The translations under genes were made by a program, and so were the position numbers. The notes under the pieces were generated by a model. That model was not told the DNA's origin. It made no database searches and saw nothing but the letters and a program-made list of their open reading frames with translations. This document shows positions 32,396 through 36,267 of a stretch of DNA of 64,000 nt, one piece after another; positions within the stretch are counted from its first letter, which is position 1, and the number at the start of each line of letters is the position of its first letter. The DNA is from a virus: the IMG/VR virus record IMGVR_UViG_3300019458_000191, positions 25,914-89,913 of that record; one strand, written 5' to 3'.

Positions 32396-32590
32396 TTACA
32401 TAAAAGAACACAATAAACAAAGTAAAGGTTTTTTATAATACCACCTTCTTTTTAATAATTTATCTCTTTCCGGATTATTTTTTACCCAATGTTTATCTCT
32501 ACATCTCGTAGAACAAAATTTCTTATTAGGATGTTTTGTAGATAGTAAAAAATCAGAATTACAAAATAAACATTTAACTAATGTCTCCAT
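32396..32590 (-). CDS. Small Zn-finger protein, possibly a truncated homing endonuclease
   Basis: CLFC...KFCSTRC followed by CLLC and an early stop; very AT-rich. Confidence 0.5.
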   Translation of the reverse strand: METLVKCLFCNSDFLLSTKHPNKKFCSTRCRDKHWVKNNPERDKLLKRRWYYKKPLLCLLCSFM

Positions 32591-32864
32591 TTTCCTTTAT
32601 CTTCTCGTTTTCGTAATCCGAAACAGGTCTTCTATATAATTCCAATTTTATACACTCTAATACACCAATTAAATCATTAGCAGTCTGATATCCGCGTTGA
32701 AGATTCAAAATTCTATTACAAACCGTTGATATGACGTAATTTATTTCTCCCACCGAATATAATGGTTTGCGTTCATCAAAAAGATTTTCCTCTGTGAGTT
32801 TTCGAACAATAGTATCTATTAATTCGTCGTATTTCTTTCGGTCTTCTGGTTTAATATAAGGCAT
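32574..32864 (-). CDS. DUF6899-like phage protein
   Basis: Motifs MPYIK..R, GE.NY.I and G.LEC.KLELYRR....YE..K..ENGD. Confidence 0.8.
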   Translation of the reverse strand: MPYIKPEDRKKYDELIDTIVRKLTEENLFDERKPLYSVGEINYVISTVCNRILNLQRGYQTANDLIGVLECIKLELYRRPVSDYENEKIKENGDIS

Positions 32865-32865
32865 A

Positions 32866-33207
32866 TTATTCGAAACTTTTACATTTGAGTTGAATTACGG
32901 TGACAGTAGAAGTCAAATCCAAATCAGGATAATAATCTCTCAATCCTTCAAATAAATCCGTTCTCGACACAAACCCATCTTTTATATATTCGTCTTCGGT
33001 TATGTCATTGAGTGTAGTATGACGAACGTTGACTACTTCTGCTTCCATGCACCAATTTACATCGGGACAAGCCAAAATAACTTTACCGGGTTTATAATCT
33101 CTATGACCTTCTCGAATTGTGATAGTTTTTTCTCCACTCATTGCTACATCTATAAGAGATTCTGACAGGAGAAGACATTGTAAAGGTTTTTTTAATTTAG
33201 ACTCCAT
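32866..33207 (-). CDS. ASCH domain protein
   Basis: Motifs GEKTITIR and DGF...L..YYP.....VTVI. Confidence 0.85.
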   Translation of the reverse strand: MESKLKKPLQCLLLSESLIDVAMSGEKTITIREGHRDYKPGKVILACPDVNWCMEAEVVNVRHTTLNDITEDEYIKDGFVSRTDLFEGLRDYYPDLDLTSTVTVIQLKCKSFE

Positions 33208-33385
33208 AATTTATTTTAACTAAATATTTTTTTGTTATTGATTGAGAATGAGCCAGAGAAACTTCAGCAACAGGAGTTCCCGGAGGATAAATAGTTTCGA
33301 TGGTAACTGGTCCCTTTTCTTTAACAAGAGTTAACAATCCATTGATTATTTCCTCAGACGTATCAAATGATAATGTCTCACTCAT
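33197..33385 (-). CDS. Hypothetical protein
   Basis: Overlaps both neighbours in the operon. Confidence 0.55.
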   Translation of the reverse strand: MSETLSFDTSEEIINGLLTLVKEKGPVTIETIYPPGTPVAEVSLAHSQSITKKYLVKINYGV

Positions 33386-33720
33386 ACTGGTTCCATGTAT
33401 TCTACAGGTATTCCAAATTCTGTAGCAATCTTTATTTCAGCATTGACTCCGGTTGATTCCTTATATCCATCAACCATCAAAACTATAAGTTTTTGACAAC
33501 GAGCAATCATTGCCACATCGAATGCTTTCCAGAATTCCCAATGACCTGGCAAACTTGCATCAACCGACATTGGATGACATTGAGAAATAGGAGCAAAAAC
33601 AAAATGACCTTCACACATCAATTTTGAAGCTGCTCTATTTGATGCATGAAATCTTTCTTCTTGAACAGATTTATCTTTATGAGAATACGGACAGGCTAAA
33701 TATATGAGGGAATTATTCAT
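33382..33720 (-). CDS. DUF1937 / nucleoside 2-deoxyribosyltransferase-like protein
   Basis: Motifs IYLACPYS, FAPI..H, W..FD and S.GV.AEI..A. Confidence 0.85.
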   Translation of the reverse strand: MNNSLIYLACPYSHKDKSVQEERFHASNRAASKLMCEGHFVFAPISQCHPMSVDASLPGHWEFWKAFDVAMIARCQKLIVLMVDGYKESTGVNAEIKIATEFGIPVEYMEPV

Positions 33721-33721
33721 A

Positions 33722-34114
33722 TCAATTCGAATTAGGATTTAATGCTCCTGTTAAATGAATAAGTTCCACCGAATTATATGGTTGAACTATTAAATTAATG
33801 GCCAATGTTGCTGGCTCCAAAAAATATACATGTGTTCGATATGATTGTATTATTTTCATATCTTCGAGTGTCAGTAATTCTTTATCGATATTTGATGACA
33901 CTTTAGTTCGTGTTTCAGAATTCATCGGTTCAAATGCCGATGCACGTAACTCTCTATCAATTAATTCTTTCAAAGTCTTAACAAGAACACTATTTTCATA
34001 CCTTGAAAGAGTGTCTGATTTTTCCGTTGTATTATTTGACCAAGAAGGTCTTGGAATCCAAGCAAACAAACAAGTCAAAAATGATGCTTTAGTAAAAAAT
34101 TGTCTTCTATTCAT
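33722..34114 (-). CDS. Tat-signal protein with stand-alone tail-sheath C-terminal-like domain
   Basis: MNRRQFF twin-arginine leader; FEP.N..TR..V...I...L..L....I..Y and I..IVQP..SVE.I.L; AAGGAGG RBS. Confidence 0.7.
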   Translation of the reverse strand: MNRRQFFTKASFLTCLFAWIPRPSWSNNTTEKSDTLSRYENSVLVKTLKELIDRELRASAFEPMNSETRTKVSSNIDKELLTLEDMKIIQSYRTHVYFLEPATLAINLIVQPYNSVELIHLTGALNPNSN

Positions 34115-34275
34115 TGTTGACCTCCTTCAAAGCAAGTTCATACATGTTCATTAGTGTAGAGCTTAATGTTTCGCCTCCATGAAAGACTTCTAATTTTTTG
34201 TAAAGATTCAAGGTCGATTCTTGATTTTGCTTCTTTTCCATTCTTTCTAACTATTATTTCAACTTCATTTTTCAT
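34107..34275 (-). pseudogene. Small ORF with a frameshift in an A6 run; the corrected product resembles a T4 gp23 segment
   Basis: As read it stops at 34138. Removing one A at 34194-34199 gives ...EAKSRIDLESLQKLEVFHG...EVNNE*, overlapping the next ATG. Confidence 0.5.
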
Positions 34276-34279
34276 AATT

Positions 34280-35026
34280 TTATCGTAATTCAGGTTTCAA
34301 AAGTTTCCAACGGTCGCTGTTAATTCTTACAATATTATCATCGATGTTTTCTACCATCGTCATGACTTCTTCAACGTTATTGTAGATGTATTTATGAGGA
34401 ACAGCACCCATTATCCACAATGGAGTCTTTTTCTTACCACCTTCAATAGAAAGGAACAAAGGTTTCTTTTCACGAATGACAGTGGTTATTTCTTCGGCAC
34501 TTCCCCACGATGCTTTCTCTGGAATGATATGAGCTATAAAGAAATCACAAATATCACACAATCTTAAATCATGAGAACGAACCTGCCACATTCTCTGTTG
34601 AACCAAATCATATTGTTCTGTTTCCATCCAGTGATGCATTTCATCTCGTGACCTTTCATCTTCTGGAATTTCATTAATGAATGGTTTGTGATATGGGTCG
34701 AAAAAGGTAATATTCCTATTGGCGAGCCTCTGTTTTATAACATCTCTCCATCCCCGGCCGTCTGAATATTGCATGTGACCAATCAGATAACAGCGAGTTC
34801 TAAACAAAACGTTTTCTTTTGTTTTAACAGATGATTGTTGGTCTTCTGCATTACCAAACAATAATTTTTTGTGTTCATTTTCCATAGGAATTTTATAATT
34901 CTGGTTTTTAATAACCCGGCAACCTTCTTCTTCTAAAGAACGAATCCGAATGTCAAACCACTCTCCGGTGGCATCATTTCGTTGTAACCACCAAGGCGGA
35001 TCACCGGCTGACAGTTTTGTTGACAT
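34280..35026 (-). CDS. Nucleoside 2-deoxyribosyltransferase-like protein
   Basis: Motifs YLIG.M....GWR, FDP, DL...D.CD and GSAEE. The true start may be internal. Confidence 0.8.
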   Translation of the reverse strand: MSTKLSAGDPPWWLQRNDATGEWFDIRIRSLEEEGCRVIKNQNYKIPMENEHKKLLFGNAEDQQSSVKTKENVLFRTRCYLIGHMQYSDGRGWRDVIKQRLANRNITFFDPYHKPFINEIPEDERSRDEMHHWMETEQYDLVQQRMWQVRSHDLRLCDICDFFIAHIIPEKASWGSAEEITTVIREKKPLFLSIEGGKKKTPLWIMGAVPHKYIYNNVEEVMTMVENIDDNIVRINSDRWKLLKPELR

Positions 35027-35028
35027 TA

Positions 35029-35259
35029 TTAGTCGGTAACTGTCACAAACTCCAGAGCTAATCCACGTTGTTGTGCAAAATCCATCAAATCAGGTAATTC
35101 ACGAACCGGACGATAGTTTACTGCAACTTCAAGAGTTTTGCAAAAACGGGTTGGATGATTTTCAATCACGTTTGCACCACGCAACCATTGATGGGTGTGG
35201 TATTTTTGAATAAATTCGGCTAGGGCCTGACGGTCTTTTTCGTTTGTTGGTAATTTCAT
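35029..35259 (-). CDS. Hypothetical protein
   Basis: Open frame in an operon. Confidence 0.65.
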   Translation of the reverse strand: MKLPTNEKDRQALAEFIQKYHTHQWLRGANVIENHPTRFCKTLEVAVNYRPVRELPDLMDFAQQRGLALEFVTVTD

Positions 35260-35293
35260 AATTTTTTCTTTCCTACATTAATAATATCGAACA

Positions 35294-36265
35294 TTACTTC
35301 AAATGTTTCAAGATTTTATATACACACGCCAAAAACGTTAAGTCTCTGGCCTTTGGAATGACAAGTGAAGATTGATACAGTGATTCGGCCAACTCTACAA
35401 TGATTAAAGCATCCTTTCCCTTTCCGTAAGAATCGACCTTTTCAAACAATTGTTTATACAAAGCATCAAATGAATTTGGGTCAAAATCAGCAACCAACTG
35501 ACGTATCTCTCCGAATGAAGATAGTTTCGGAGACTTTAGAATTTCGACAATCTTTTCAATGAAGTCGTTATTGACAATTGATTGTTTTGATATCTTTATG
35601 ACACCATTCACCGTTGACTGTTGAGCAAAATTAAGTACTTTTCTCATGTCAGGATGAAAAGAGTTTATAATAAAAACAATATCTTCTTGTGTAAATTGTA
35701 CATTTTCAATTGTTAAGATTTCGGCCAATTTAACGGCCCCTTCCTTTTTACTGGAAGGACGGATTTCAAACCCCTGAGTCCTTGAAATTAACGCTGGAAT
35801 TATCTTTTCTACATAATTACATGTTAAAATAAACCGTGTATGAGCCGAATATGTTTCCAACAAATTTCTAAGAACAGATTGTGCATTAAGAGTCAAGAAG
35901 TCGGCTTCATCCAATATGATGACCTTTAATGGTCTAAATCCAGCGGAATAAGCAAAATTCTTAATCTTGTCTCTAATTGTTTCAATACCATTTTCATCCG
36001 ATGCATTAATTGTCATTACATCACATGGTATATGTTGAACGATTAATTTAGCCAATGTAGTCTTTCCGGTACCAGCAGGCCCACTGAATAAAAGATTTGG
36101 AATATCTTTCTTTTCTATGAAAAGTTTGATTTGTTCTTTTATATCCGAGTGTCCGACATATTCATCCAATGTCGCAGGCCGATATTTCTCAACCCAAAGA
36201 GTATGTTTTTCTCTTTTGGCTAAGGTTTTATCTAAACGTGATTCATCTTCAAAAAAATCATTCAT
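35294..36265 (-). CDS. Clamp loader subunit (T4 gp44 / RFC small subunit-like)
   Basis: Motifs LWVEKYRP, GPAGTGKTT, NASD, ILDEAD, FILTCN and SR. Confidence 0.95.
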   Translation of the reverse strand: MNDFFEDESRLDKTLAKREKHTLWVEKYRPATLDEYVGHSDIKEQIKLFIEKKDIPNLLFSGPAGTGKTTLAKLIVQHIPCDVMTINASDENGIETIRDKIKNFAYSAGFRPLKVIILDEADFLTLNAQSVLRNLLETYSAHTRFILTCNYVEKIIPALISRTQGFEIRPSSKKEGAVKLAEILTIENVQFTQEDIVFIINSFHPDMRKVLNFAQQSTVNGVIKISKQSIVNNDFIEKIVEILKSPKLSSFGEIRQLVADFDPNSFDALYKQLFEKVDSYGKGKDALIIVELAESLYQSSLVIPKARDLTFLACVYKILKHLK

Positions 36266-36267
36266 AA

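What the first reader, a model, noticed from the sequence alone, without database searches (positions are those of the whole stretch)
34107..34275. Miniature major-capsid (gp23)-like peptide next to the sheath fragment, split by an A6 frameshift
Seen: ATG 34275 reads MKNEVEIIVRKNGKEAKSRIDLESLQK and then stops at 34138. Dropping one A from the A6 run at 34194-34199 continues LEVFHGGETLSSTLMNMYELALKEVNNE*, whose stop overlaps the next gene's ATG as in a coupled operon. Established (recalled from memory): T4 gp23 contains EMGFRIDKQVIEAKSRQLKAAYSIELAQDLRAVHGMDADAELSGILATEIMLEINRE. The peptide matches EAKSR and E..Q.L...HG, and has the same 17-residue spacing from HG to E(V/I)N.E. Inference: a capsid-fragment mimic beside a sheath-fragment mimic suggests a cassette of structural-protein decoys, for example against defence systems that sense virion proteins. 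The A6 run may be an assembly error, pseudogenisation or a slippage switch.
Basis: partly seen in the sequence, partly recalled or inferred. Interest (0 to 1): 0.8.

Follow-up and report, generated by a model that had tools for sequence, protein, structure and literature searches.

The report
Broken mini-gene copied from capsid protein
A tiny gene in an uncultured giant T4-like phage looks like a copied piece of the phage head-shell protein, but in this phage one extra A has broken it; an intact version exists in one related phage, and what it does is untested.

Summary
ATG 34275 opens a 45-codon frame. The A6 run lies at 34194-34199. Skipping one base gives a 55-aa protein whose stop overlaps the next gene's ATG. 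The A6 run is not a slip of one assembly: contigs from two cave-metagenome runs match the window with 0 differences. An exhaustive phmmer search found one intact 63-aa homologue, P0005 (E 3e-9), which crosses the break without a gap. The 55-aa reading is therefore the ancestral one, and the window's copy is most likely a recent pseudogene. The capsid likeness is at chance level for the window's peptide alone. It becomes credible through P0005. The only hit among 38,880 PHROG families is the T4 gp23 family, at E 0.14. hhalign against 21 diverse gp23-type proteins gives probability 86%, and 0 of 691 shuffles reach that score. The matched piece is T4 gp23 233-305. No Pfam hit was found, there are only two family members, and no structure could be predicted. 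The decoy function and the "cassette" with the sheath-like neighbour are untested. This scan has noted capsid-fragment mini-genes before in other T4-like phages.

The parts
34195..34275 (-). First 27 codons of the small gene (frame A): MKNEVEIIVRKNGKEAKSRIDLESLQK. This is the conserved half, with 20 of 25 aligned residues identical to P0005.
   Evidence: Codon-phase score favours this frame by 9.2 and 10.3 ln units over the other two.
34194..34199 (-). A6 run, the site of the +1 frame break. The ancestral state is inferred to be one A shorter.
   Evidence: It is identical in contigs of two runs. The junction ESLQK|LEVFHG aligns without a gap to ESLQD|LQALHG of P0005.
34107..34193 (-). Last 28 codons plus stop of the ancestral gene (frame B): LEVFHGGETLSSTLMNMYELALKEVNNE*. 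10 of 28 residues are identical to P0005, and the protein ends at the same place.
   Evidence: Frame B is favoured over frame A by 5.65 ln units across 84 nt.
34138..34275 (-). The 45-aa ORF as it stands (P0003): 27 in-frame residues plus an 18-residue out-of-frame tail.
34107..34241 (-). The 44-aa ORF as it stands (P0002): an internal ATG, 16 out-of-frame residues, then the last 28 ancestral residues.
33722..34114 (-). Downstream neighbour of 130 aa. It has a twin-arginine-like N-terminus (MNRRQFF...), weak likeness to the C-terminal domain of tail sheath, and a strong AAGGAGG ribosome-binding site that lies inside the small gene.
34280..35026 (-). Upstream neighbour of 248 aa, nucleoside 2-deoxyribosyltransferase-like. 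Its stop lies 4 nt before ATG 34275.

Best explanation
The locus is a frameshift-inactivated copy of a small orphan phage gene (55 aa here, 63 aa in its one intact relative). That gene descends from a piece of a T4-type major capsid protein. The piece corresponds to T4 gp23 about 233-305: the end of I-domain linker 2, the stretch beside the short P-domain helix where head-length mutations cluster, and the first 20 or so residues of the spine helix. In this phage one extra A in an A-run (inferred A5 to A6) moved the last 28 codons out of frame. The change is fixed in the assemblies of both samples, so here the gene is most likely a recent pseudogene. Shown: the frame break, its reproducibility, the intact homologue, and sequence-profile likeness to gp23. 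Inferred: descent from a capsid gene, recency of the break, and co-transcription with the replication-module genes (spacing of 4 nt and an 8-nt overlap). How the intact protein works is inference only. My best guess (about 0.35) is that it acts as a free-standing mimic of this conserved capsid segment and competes for whatever binds it. I favour a host capsid sensor or chaperone over capsomer contacts, because the gene sits among replication and accessory genes rather than head genes. A functionless relic of a partial duplication is about as likely (about 0.3).
For: Frame break and reproducibility. Intact homologue: phmmer against 1.84 billion representatives found P0005 at E 3.1e-9, with query 3-53 matching 12-62. 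The alignment is 59% identical with no gap at the junction. The profile hits the own contig in two frames, covering profile positions 10-40 and 31-64. Coding signal switches frame at the run.

gp23 likeness:
- BLASTP of P0005 against T4 gp23 gives 25.4 bits, E 1e-4, at residues 258-286.
- The only PHROG hit of P0005 among 38,880 families is phrog_138 (E 0.14), which is the T4 gp23 family (E 7e-177).
- tblastn of P0005 against 50,697 phage records found 77 records at E<=10. Of the 40 listed rows, 29 lie under genes annotated major head or capsid protein, in both coliphages and cyanophages.
- hmmsearch --max with a 13-sequence gp23 model scores P0005 at 8.7 bits, reached by 1 of 4000 shuffles.
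- hhalign of the two-sequence profile gives probability 64.8% against 13 gp23 sequences. It gives 86.2%, P 4.9e-6, score 40.4 against 21 diverse ones. 0 of 774 and 0 of 691 column shuffles reach these scores; the shuffle maxima are 24.8 and 22.1.
- Among 201 real proteins, the top three scores are the S-CREM2, T4 and RsoM2USA capsid proteins.
- P0001 matches 11 of 20 aligned gp23 columns that are >=90% conserved, against 5 of 35 variable ones.

Context: the phages with the closest clamp loaders include large T4-type phages. Two of them, RsoM2USA and LR756508, were tested and both have phrog_138 capsid proteins. Structural placing of the segment comes from passages of PMC9546572.
Against: No Pfam Gp23 hit for P0001 or P0005 at E<=10, and no PDB sequence hit. 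Every unbiased database search is individually non-significant: PHROG E 0.14 and best tblastn E 1. The hhalign P of 4.9e-6 would be about 0.2 if multiplied by 38,880 families.

P0001 alone is weak. Its HMM score is 0.5 bits, reached by 3.7% of shuffles. Two of the 28 other T4 ORFs score higher by Smith-Waterman. hhalign probability is 26%. P0005's count of conserved columns is no better than for variable columns under MAFFT's gap placing: 7 of 19 against 8 of 44. A 5-residue deletion is needed in the alignment.

The family has only two members. This phage's own capsid protein is not on the 89.9-kb record, so descent from it cannot be checked. No structure model could be made. Only contigs were available, so a minority A5 form, or frameshifting during expression, cannot be excluded. 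In 34200-34241 the two open frames tie on codon phase.
Confidence: 0.6

Rival explanations
1. The gene family is real and the window's copy is frameshifted, but the likeness to gp23 is chance. It would then be an unrelated orphan small protein.
For: There is no Pfam hit. PHROG E is 0.14 and the best tblastn E is 1. P0001 alone ranks third of 29 T4 ORFs. The family was chosen post hoc. The profile has only two sequences (Neff 1.2).
Against: The score rose when the independent homologue was added and rose again with a more diverse gp23 profile. 0 of 1465 column shuffles reach the observed scores. The top three of 201 real proteins are all capsid proteins. The only PHROG hit of 38,880 is the predicted family. 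Even against the weak paralogue gp24, the best local match falls on the homologous motif.
Confidence: 0.2
2. The truncated 45-aa product (27 conserved residues plus a new 18-residue tail), or the 44-aa product from the internal ATG, is still made and useful. The locus would then be a remodelled gene, not a dead one.
For: The N-terminal half is the conserved half, with 20 of 25 residues identical to P0005 against 10 of 28 downstream. ATG 34275 keeps its tight 4-nt spacing to the upstream gene. Gene callers called each ORF on 2 contigs. The 44-aa frame scores as coding.
Against: The out-of-frame tail is disfavoured by 2.67 ln units on codon phase. The best gp23-like block (HG and the helix after it) is lost from the 45-aa form. 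No homologue of either truncated form exists apart from this phage's own copies.
Confidence: 0.12
3. Programmed +1 ribosomal frameshifting or transcriptional slippage at the A6 run yields the full 55-aa protein. The run would act as an expression switch.
For: tRNA-Lys could re-pair one base downstream on AAA-A (read). The downstream frame is open to the ancestral stop and still scores as coding.
Against: The one relative is a plain uninterrupted ORF. The next zero-frame codon is ATT, and no Shine-Dalgarno-like stimulator lies upstream (read). From general knowledge, an A6 run is short for RNA polymerase slippage. A6+ runs occur about twice per kb in ordinary genes of this genome.
Confidence: 0.06
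4. Sequencing or assembly error: the true sequence has A5 and the gene is intact.
For: Homopolymers are the classic site of such errors. Only contigs, not raw reads, could be laid.
Against: Contigs of two runs from two samples, built by a different assembler, agree with the window at 24x and 14x with 0 gaps. The split ORFs are on record from three collections.
Confidence: 0.02

Closest known systems
T4 gp23 major capsid protein family (Pfam PF07068 Gp23; phrog_138), segment 233-305
   Same: It shares the family's most conserved block. Family columns K..EAK.R, E..QD..A.HG.D and the EI/VN.E ending are matched, with the same 17-residue spacing. Profile-profile probability is 86%.
   Different: It is only 55-63 aa, against about 410-545 aa for the capsid proteins compared here. 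It lacks the A domain, the P-domain sheet, the I domain and the N-arm, so it cannot form an HK97 fold. It is below every curated threshold. It has a 5-residue deletion. It is encoded among replication and accessory genes, not head genes.
T4 alt.-1 / alt.-2, small ORFs derived from a partial duplication of gene alt
   Same: Both are short ORFs in a T4-type genome that descend from part of a larger virion-associated gene and have picked up a stop or frame change. For alt.-1 and alt.-2 this comes from the depositors' notes in NC_000866.
   Different: alt.-1 and alt.-2 lie next to their parent gene. Here the parent capsid gene is not nearby and was not seen. No function is known for either case.
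Gol region of T4 gp23 in Lit/EF-Tu exclusion (recalled from memory, not checked in a paper here)
   Same: A short segment of gp23 has biological activity on its own, as a trigger of a host defence. That is the logic behind a mimic or decoy reading.
   Different: As recalled, Gol is a different, N-terminal segment and is not separately encoded. Nothing links the present segment to Lit.
Capsid- and sheath-fragment mini-genes noted earlier in this scan in other T4-like phages (AI notes e1-5644268, e1-6071548, e1-5743724)
   Same: These are small genes built from pieces of gp23-type capsid protein, some lying among replication genes and some beside sheath-derived pieces or carrying export-type leaders.
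   Different: Those notes describe intact, multi-member sets. No sequence likeness to them was found. Here there is a single broken copy, and no other gp23 piece lies on the 89.9-kb record. The notes are unchecked leads, not evidence.

Membership tests
Gp23 major capsid protein (Pfam PF07068 / phrog_138) | Hit to the curated family model above its threshold | tested here: not met
   Pfam gives 0 families at E<=10 for P0001 and for P0005. PHROG gives none for P0001 and phrog_138 at E 0.14, 12.1 bits, for P0005.
Gp23 major capsid protein (Pfam PF07068 / phrog_138) | Complete HK97-type fold (N-arm, P domain with sheet, A domain) | tested here: not met
   By length alone: 55-63 aa cover only profile positions that correspond to T4 233-305.
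Gp23 major capsid protein (Pfam PF07068 / phrog_138) | Homology of the covered segment (descent from a gp23-type gene) | tested here: inconclusive
   hhalign gives probability 86.2%, P 4.9e-6. 0 of 691 shuffles reach that score. The top 3 of 201 real proteins are capsid proteins. 11 of 20 conserved columns are matched by P0001. Against this, the database-wide E-values are 0.14 and 1.
Pseudogene by homopolymer indel | An intact orthologue that spans the break in one frame | tested here: met
   P0005 has E 3.1e-9 and aligns without a gap across ESLQ(K/D)|L.
Pseudogene by homopolymer indel | The break lies in a mononucleotide run and is reproducible in independent data | tested here: met
   The A6 run is at 34194-34199. 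Contigs of two runs show 0 gaps. Read-level polymorphism could not be tested, because only contigs were served.
Programmed ribosomal frameshift / transcriptional slippage site | Two-frame layout conserved in relatives, with a slippery site plus a stimulator | tested here: not met
   The only relative is a single 63-aa ORF. No stimulator is seen on reading. A6+ runs are common in ordinary genes.
Anti-defence decoy or mimic of a virion protein | Binds or blocks a sensor of the mimicked protein, or rescues the phage from it | not testable with these tools
   The host and the sensor are unknown. The cognate capsid protein was not available, so no complex prediction was sent.
Tail sheath C-terminal domain (the 130-aa neighbour) | Significant match to sheath family models | tested here: inconclusive
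   PHROG tail-sheath families hit at E 0.11 and 0.14, both at the C-terminal end of the profile. There is no Pfam sheath hit. hhalign gives probability 6.8%, score 26.5, and 0 of 343 shuffles reach it. It is the best of 1354 six-frame ORFs by a sheath HMM, but at E 0.17.

The most novel reading that the evidence does not exclude
Intact members of this family are free-standing mimics of the most conserved contact segment of T4-type capsid protein: I-domain linker 2, the short P-domain helix region at the quasi-threefold axes, and the start of the spine helix. Made from a replication-module operon before head genes are expressed, they would occupy a host sensor or chaperone that recognises this segment, or poison the capsomer contacts of rival T4-like phages. 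Together with the adjacent leader-bearing protein that resembles the sheath C-terminal domain, they would form a small 'virion-piece' cassette. Its loss by frameshift in this phage would reflect arms-race turnover. This would be one instance of a wider, unpublished class of structural-protein-fragment genes in large T4-like phages.
Probability: 0.2. Interest if true: 0.8.

Novelty: new variant of a known kind. Interest (0 to 1): 0.45.

Why it matters
Many bacterial immune sensors recognise conserved phage structural proteins, including the major capsid protein (passages of bioRxiv 10.64898/2026.01.04.697583; passages of PMC13728456). A separately encoded copy of the most conserved capsid segment would be an obvious way to jam such a sensor, or to interfere with a competitor's head assembly. 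My three literature searches listed no paper whose title or abstract start describes such genes. The matched segment sits where single substitutions change T4 head length (passages of PMC9546572), so an assembly role is also conceivable. This particular copy is broken and has only one known relative. Its value is therefore mainly as one more data point for a possibly general class, and as a clean example of a fixed homopolymer frameshift in an uncultured phage.

Tried and rejected
Searches that found nothing:
- blastn of 33300-35300 against 50,697 phage records gave no match.
- A DNA pattern flanking the run, allowing other run lengths, found nothing in viral contigs or metagenome contigs. The own record may be left out of those collections.
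- Loci for P0005 or A1: 0 relatives among 35, 340 and 75 pattern matches in the viral, metagenome and genome collections.
- No locus was found for the 130-aa neighbour in viral contigs, and its word-based protein search found only itself. Conserved linkage could therefore not be tested.
- Relatives of the 248-aa gene (L001, L002) do not carry the small gene.
- Searching the own record, G001 and G002 for gp23 (PF07068, T4 gp23, phrog_138) found nothing. In some searches the controls rang nowhere either, so these blanks say nothing.
- RsoM2USA and LR756508 have no A1 homologue.
- PDB sequence search found none. ESM Atlas gave no usable hit.
- No RNA holder was listed among the sequencing runs.
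- The promoter and terminator scan of 32500-37500 was at chance level: 16 against 19.4 expected and 3 against 2.9 expected.
- The scan-notes look-ups by sequence and by place (relatives) found nothing. One word look-up found nothing relevant.

Rows dropped: of the 5 phmmer hits, I set aside P0006 (716 aa) and P0007 (196 aa). They are repeat proteins that match only a short repeated motif in 4-5 stretches.

Rejected readings: a slip of a single assembly, and a contingency switch (the run is too short, and such runs are common).

Technical problem: hhalign crashed on the real query when the template was an .hhm file. The observed scores therefore come from .aln templates and the shuffle scores from .hhm templates. 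In 5 paired trials the two differ by 1 score unit or less.

Supplements of PMC9546572 (SI Fig. S5, which maps the mutations) were not seen. The domain placing rests on main-text passages only.
Full report
WHAT IS THERE. The window is part of an 89,913-bp IMG/VR record that CheckV estimates to be 26% complete. Its G+C content is 34%. The finding lies on the minus strand, in a tightly packed run of small genes downstream of a clamp and a clamp loader. The clamp loader's best relatives in the phage collection are an uncultured 484-kb phage, Microcystis phage Mel-JY01, Pelagibacter phage HTVC008M, cyanomyophages and the 344-kb Ralstonia phage RsoM2USA, at 36-43% identity.

ATG 34275 lies 4 nt after the stop of a 248-aa nucleoside-deoxyribosyltransferase-like gene. 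It opens a 45-aa ORF. A second ORF of 44 aa overlaps it in another frame and ends with a TAG that overlaps ATG 34114 of a 130-aa gene. The A6 run is at 34194-34199.

IS THE A6 REAL? Two public runs hold the stretch. They come from two samples and two studies of cave metagenomes; either may be the source of the window. Their Logan contigs cover 33300-35300 in one piece each, with 0 other letters and 0 gaps, at word depths 24.2 and 14.3. The two ORFs as they stand are each on record on 2 contigs. One is from Logan and ENA (longest contig 340,916 bp). The other is from JGI/IMG (longest 340,880 bp). A slip of one assembler is therefore unlikely. A minority form cannot be excluded, because only contigs were served.

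IS THE 55-AA READING MEANINGFUL? A word-based search of 5.8 billion proteins found only the two split ORFs, 2 of 2 candidates. An exhaustive phmmer search of 1.84 billion representatives found 5 proteins at E<=0.001:
- the two split ORFs;
- two repeat proteins that match a short motif, which I set aside;
- P0005, an intact 63-aa protein from a 97,858-bp Logan contig (E 3.1e-9).

P0005 aligns to P0001 at 59% identity with no gap at the junction, and both proteins end at the same place. Before the run 20 of 25 aligned residues are identical. After it 10 of 28 are identical. Both counts were made on the alignment.

Codon-phase likelihoods trained on the record's long ORFs agree with a frame switch. 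The 81 nt before the run favour frame A by 9.2 and 10.3 ln units. The 84 nt after it favour frame B, by 5.65 over frame A. For true genes, pieces of this size give a mean margin of about 8.5 with sd 3.7, and the true frame is best in 98% of pieces. In 34200-34241 the two open frames tie.

The window's copy is thus a once-continuous gene broken by one extra A. The only relative is a plain ORF. I see no frameshift stimulator, and A6+ runs occur about twice per kb of ordinary ORF. I therefore read it as a pseudogene or a remodelled remnant, not a recoding site.

IS IT CAPSID-LIKE? For P0001 alone the answer is no better than chance:
- No Pfam or PHROG family at E<=10.
- No PDB sequence hit.
- BLASTP against T4 gp23 gives 19.2 bits with a pairwise E of 0.014.
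- 0.9% of 2000 shuffles reach its Smith-Waterman score, and gp23 ranks only third of 29 ORFs in a 30-kb stretch of T4.

The intact homologue changes the picture:
- P0005 scores higher against gp23 at the same place: 25.4 bits, E 1e-4, residues 258-286.
- Its only hit among 38,880 PHROG families is phrog_138 (E 0.14). T4 gp23 itself matches that family at E 7e-177.
- tblastn of P0005 against all 50,697 phage records returns 77 records at E<=10. None is significant on its own; the best E is 1. Of the 40 listed rows, 29 lie under genes annotated major head or capsid protein, in both coliphages and cyanophages. Three lie at the S-CAM3 position that another record annotates as major head protein. 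Two are unannotated. Six lie under a Yua-type hypothetical gene.

I then built gp23 alignments from fetched loci. One search gave 76 loci, reduced to 13 sequences at under 80% identity. I added the capsid proteins of S-CREM2, RsoM2USA and LR756508 and five more distant loci, giving 21 sequences. The results were:
- hmmsearch --max scores P0005 at 8.7 bits, reached by 1 of 4000 shuffles. P0001 scores 0.5 bits, reached by 3.7% of shuffles.
- hhalign of the two-sequence profile gives probability 64.8% (score 30.9) against the 13 sequences.
- Against the 21 sequences it gives 86.2% (score 40.4, P 4.9e-6, T4 233-288).
- 0 of 774 and 0 of 691 column shuffles reach these scores; the shuffle maxima are 24.8 and 22.1. 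The reversed profile scores 9.5.
- The templates differed in file type between the observed and shuffled runs, which shifts scores by 1 unit or less.
- Against 201 real proteins, the three best scores are the S-CREM2, T4 and RsoM2USA capsid proteins (31.9, 27.6, 20.5). The next best is 18.8.
- P0001 matches 11 of 20 aligned gp23 columns that are >=90% conserved, but only 5 of 35 variable ones. For P0005, MAFFT places the gap differently and the contrast vanishes: 7 of 19 against 8 of 44.
- One of the two gaps in the hhalign alignment coincides with a loop that distant gp23 relatives also lack.

Against all this, Pfam never fires. The hhalign P would be about 0.2 after multiplying by the number of PHROG families. 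The family has two members. The target was chosen post hoc. I put descent from a gp23-type gene at about 0.8.

WHICH PIECE? From main-text passages of PMC9546572:
- The I-domain linkers stand in for the HK97 E-loop.
- The head-length mutations A268V, A275T, D285V and D287V/N lie beside the short P-domain helix at the quasi-threefold axes, where capsomers make charge contacts.

The mini-protein's best block aligns to T4 270-287. The whole protein aligns to about 233-305. It therefore covers the end of linker 2, that mutation cluster and the start of the spine helix. The supplementary figure that maps these residues was not available to me.

SURROUNDINGS. In the 203-kb relative L001, the homologue of the 248-aa gene is followed directly by the homologue of the window's 96-aa gene at 32574-32864 (42% identity, E 4e-26). 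The five genes between them in the window therefore look like a variable accessory block. They are the small gene, the 130-aa gene, a DUF1937 gene, a 62-aa gene and an ASCH gene.

The 130-aa neighbour has no relative in the word-based search. Its sheath likeness is suggestive but not significant:
- Two tail-sheath PHROGs hit at E 0.11 and 0.14, both at the C-terminal end of the profile.
- BLASTP against T4 gp18 gives 18.5 bits at residues 556-605.
- hhalign gives probability 6.8% over 98 collinear columns, and 0 of 343 shuffles reach the score.
- It is the best of 1354 six-frame ORFs by a sheath HMM, at E 0.17.

No other gp23 piece is on the record; the best E is 1.1. Shine-Dalgarno motifs are rare in this genome (18 of 116 long ORFs), so their absence at ATG 34275 says nothing.

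FUNCTION. Nothing here tests function. The gene's place among replication and accessory genes, and its tight spacing, suggest expression with them rather than with head genes. This is inference; the promoter scan was at chance level. Capsid proteins are known triggers of several defence systems (passages). A mimic that competes for such a sensor is therefore my preferred reading for the intact protein (about 0.35). Interference with capsomer contacts is second. A functionless relic of a partial duplication is about equally likely (about 0.3). T4's own alt.-1 and alt.-2 are a precedent for such relics (depositors' notes). In this phage the gene is broken, so whatever it did is probably dispensable here.

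CONTEXT IN THIS SCAN AND IN PRINT. A word look-up of earlier notes returned 61 findings in at least 58 other genomes that describe capsid-fragment, and sometimes sheath-fragment, mini-genes in T4-like phages. These are unchecked AI notes. No sequence likeness to them was found. I use them only as context. Three full-text searches listed no paper whose title or abstract start describes separately encoded capsid-fragment proteins. I saw only the listings and, for three papers, passages.

VERDICT. The frameshift is real and most likely inactivating. The capsid-fragment origin is probable but not proven. The decoy-cassette idea is open. This is a modestly interesting instance of a possibly wider class.

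Noticed in passing
window 33722-34114 (-): The 130-aa orphan protein has a twin-arginine-like start (MNRRQFF plus a hydrophobic stretch). Its collinear but weak likeness to the tail-sheath C-terminal domain covers T4 gp18 536-641. It is the top hit of 1354 six-frame ORFs by a sheath HMM, at E 0.17. It has a strong AAGGAGG site in a genome where only 18 of 116 long ORFs have a core SD.
   Followed up: partly
window 32866-34275 (-) compared with L001 3995-4819: In the 203-kb relative L001, the homologues of the 248-aa and 96-aa genes are adjacent. In the window five small genes lie between them: the capsid-like peptide, the 130-aa gene, DUF1937, a 62-aa gene and ASCH. This looks like a variable accessory block.
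   Followed up: partly
window 34280-35026 (-) and 33382-33720 (-): Two nucleoside-2-deoxyribosyltransferase-like genes flank the pair. One gives Nuc_deoxyri_tr2 at E 4e-4, the other DUF1937 at E 2e-18. The 248-aa one has about 70 extra N-terminal residues compared with its 179-aa relatives in L001 and L002.
   Followed up: no
PHROG library: T4 gp23 also matches three short PHROG families that cover only N-terminal pieces of it: phrog_1823 (54 positions, gp23 59-101), phrog_2086 (156 positions) and phrog_12830 (128 positions). Families of short gp23-piece proteins therefore already sit unnamed in PHROGs. They may be split genes or true mini-genes.
   Followed up: no
L029 (IMGVR_UViG_2974546015_000001, 101636-104312): The gp23 match spans 2277 nt instead of about 1550 nt, which suggests an insertion inside gene 23, such as an intron or a homing-endonuclease gene.
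   Followed up: no
LR756508.1 204353-204910 and 207788-208420: The 484-kb uncultured phage has two sheath-like genes about 3 kb apart. Both match the C-terminal part of T4 gp18, at E 1e-20 and 3e-39.
   Followed up: no
L082 2430-2909 (OR473000.1 119959-120438): In Synechococcus phage S-CREM2 a gene annotated 'intron-encoded endonuclease' lies directly after the major capsid gene.
   Followed up: no
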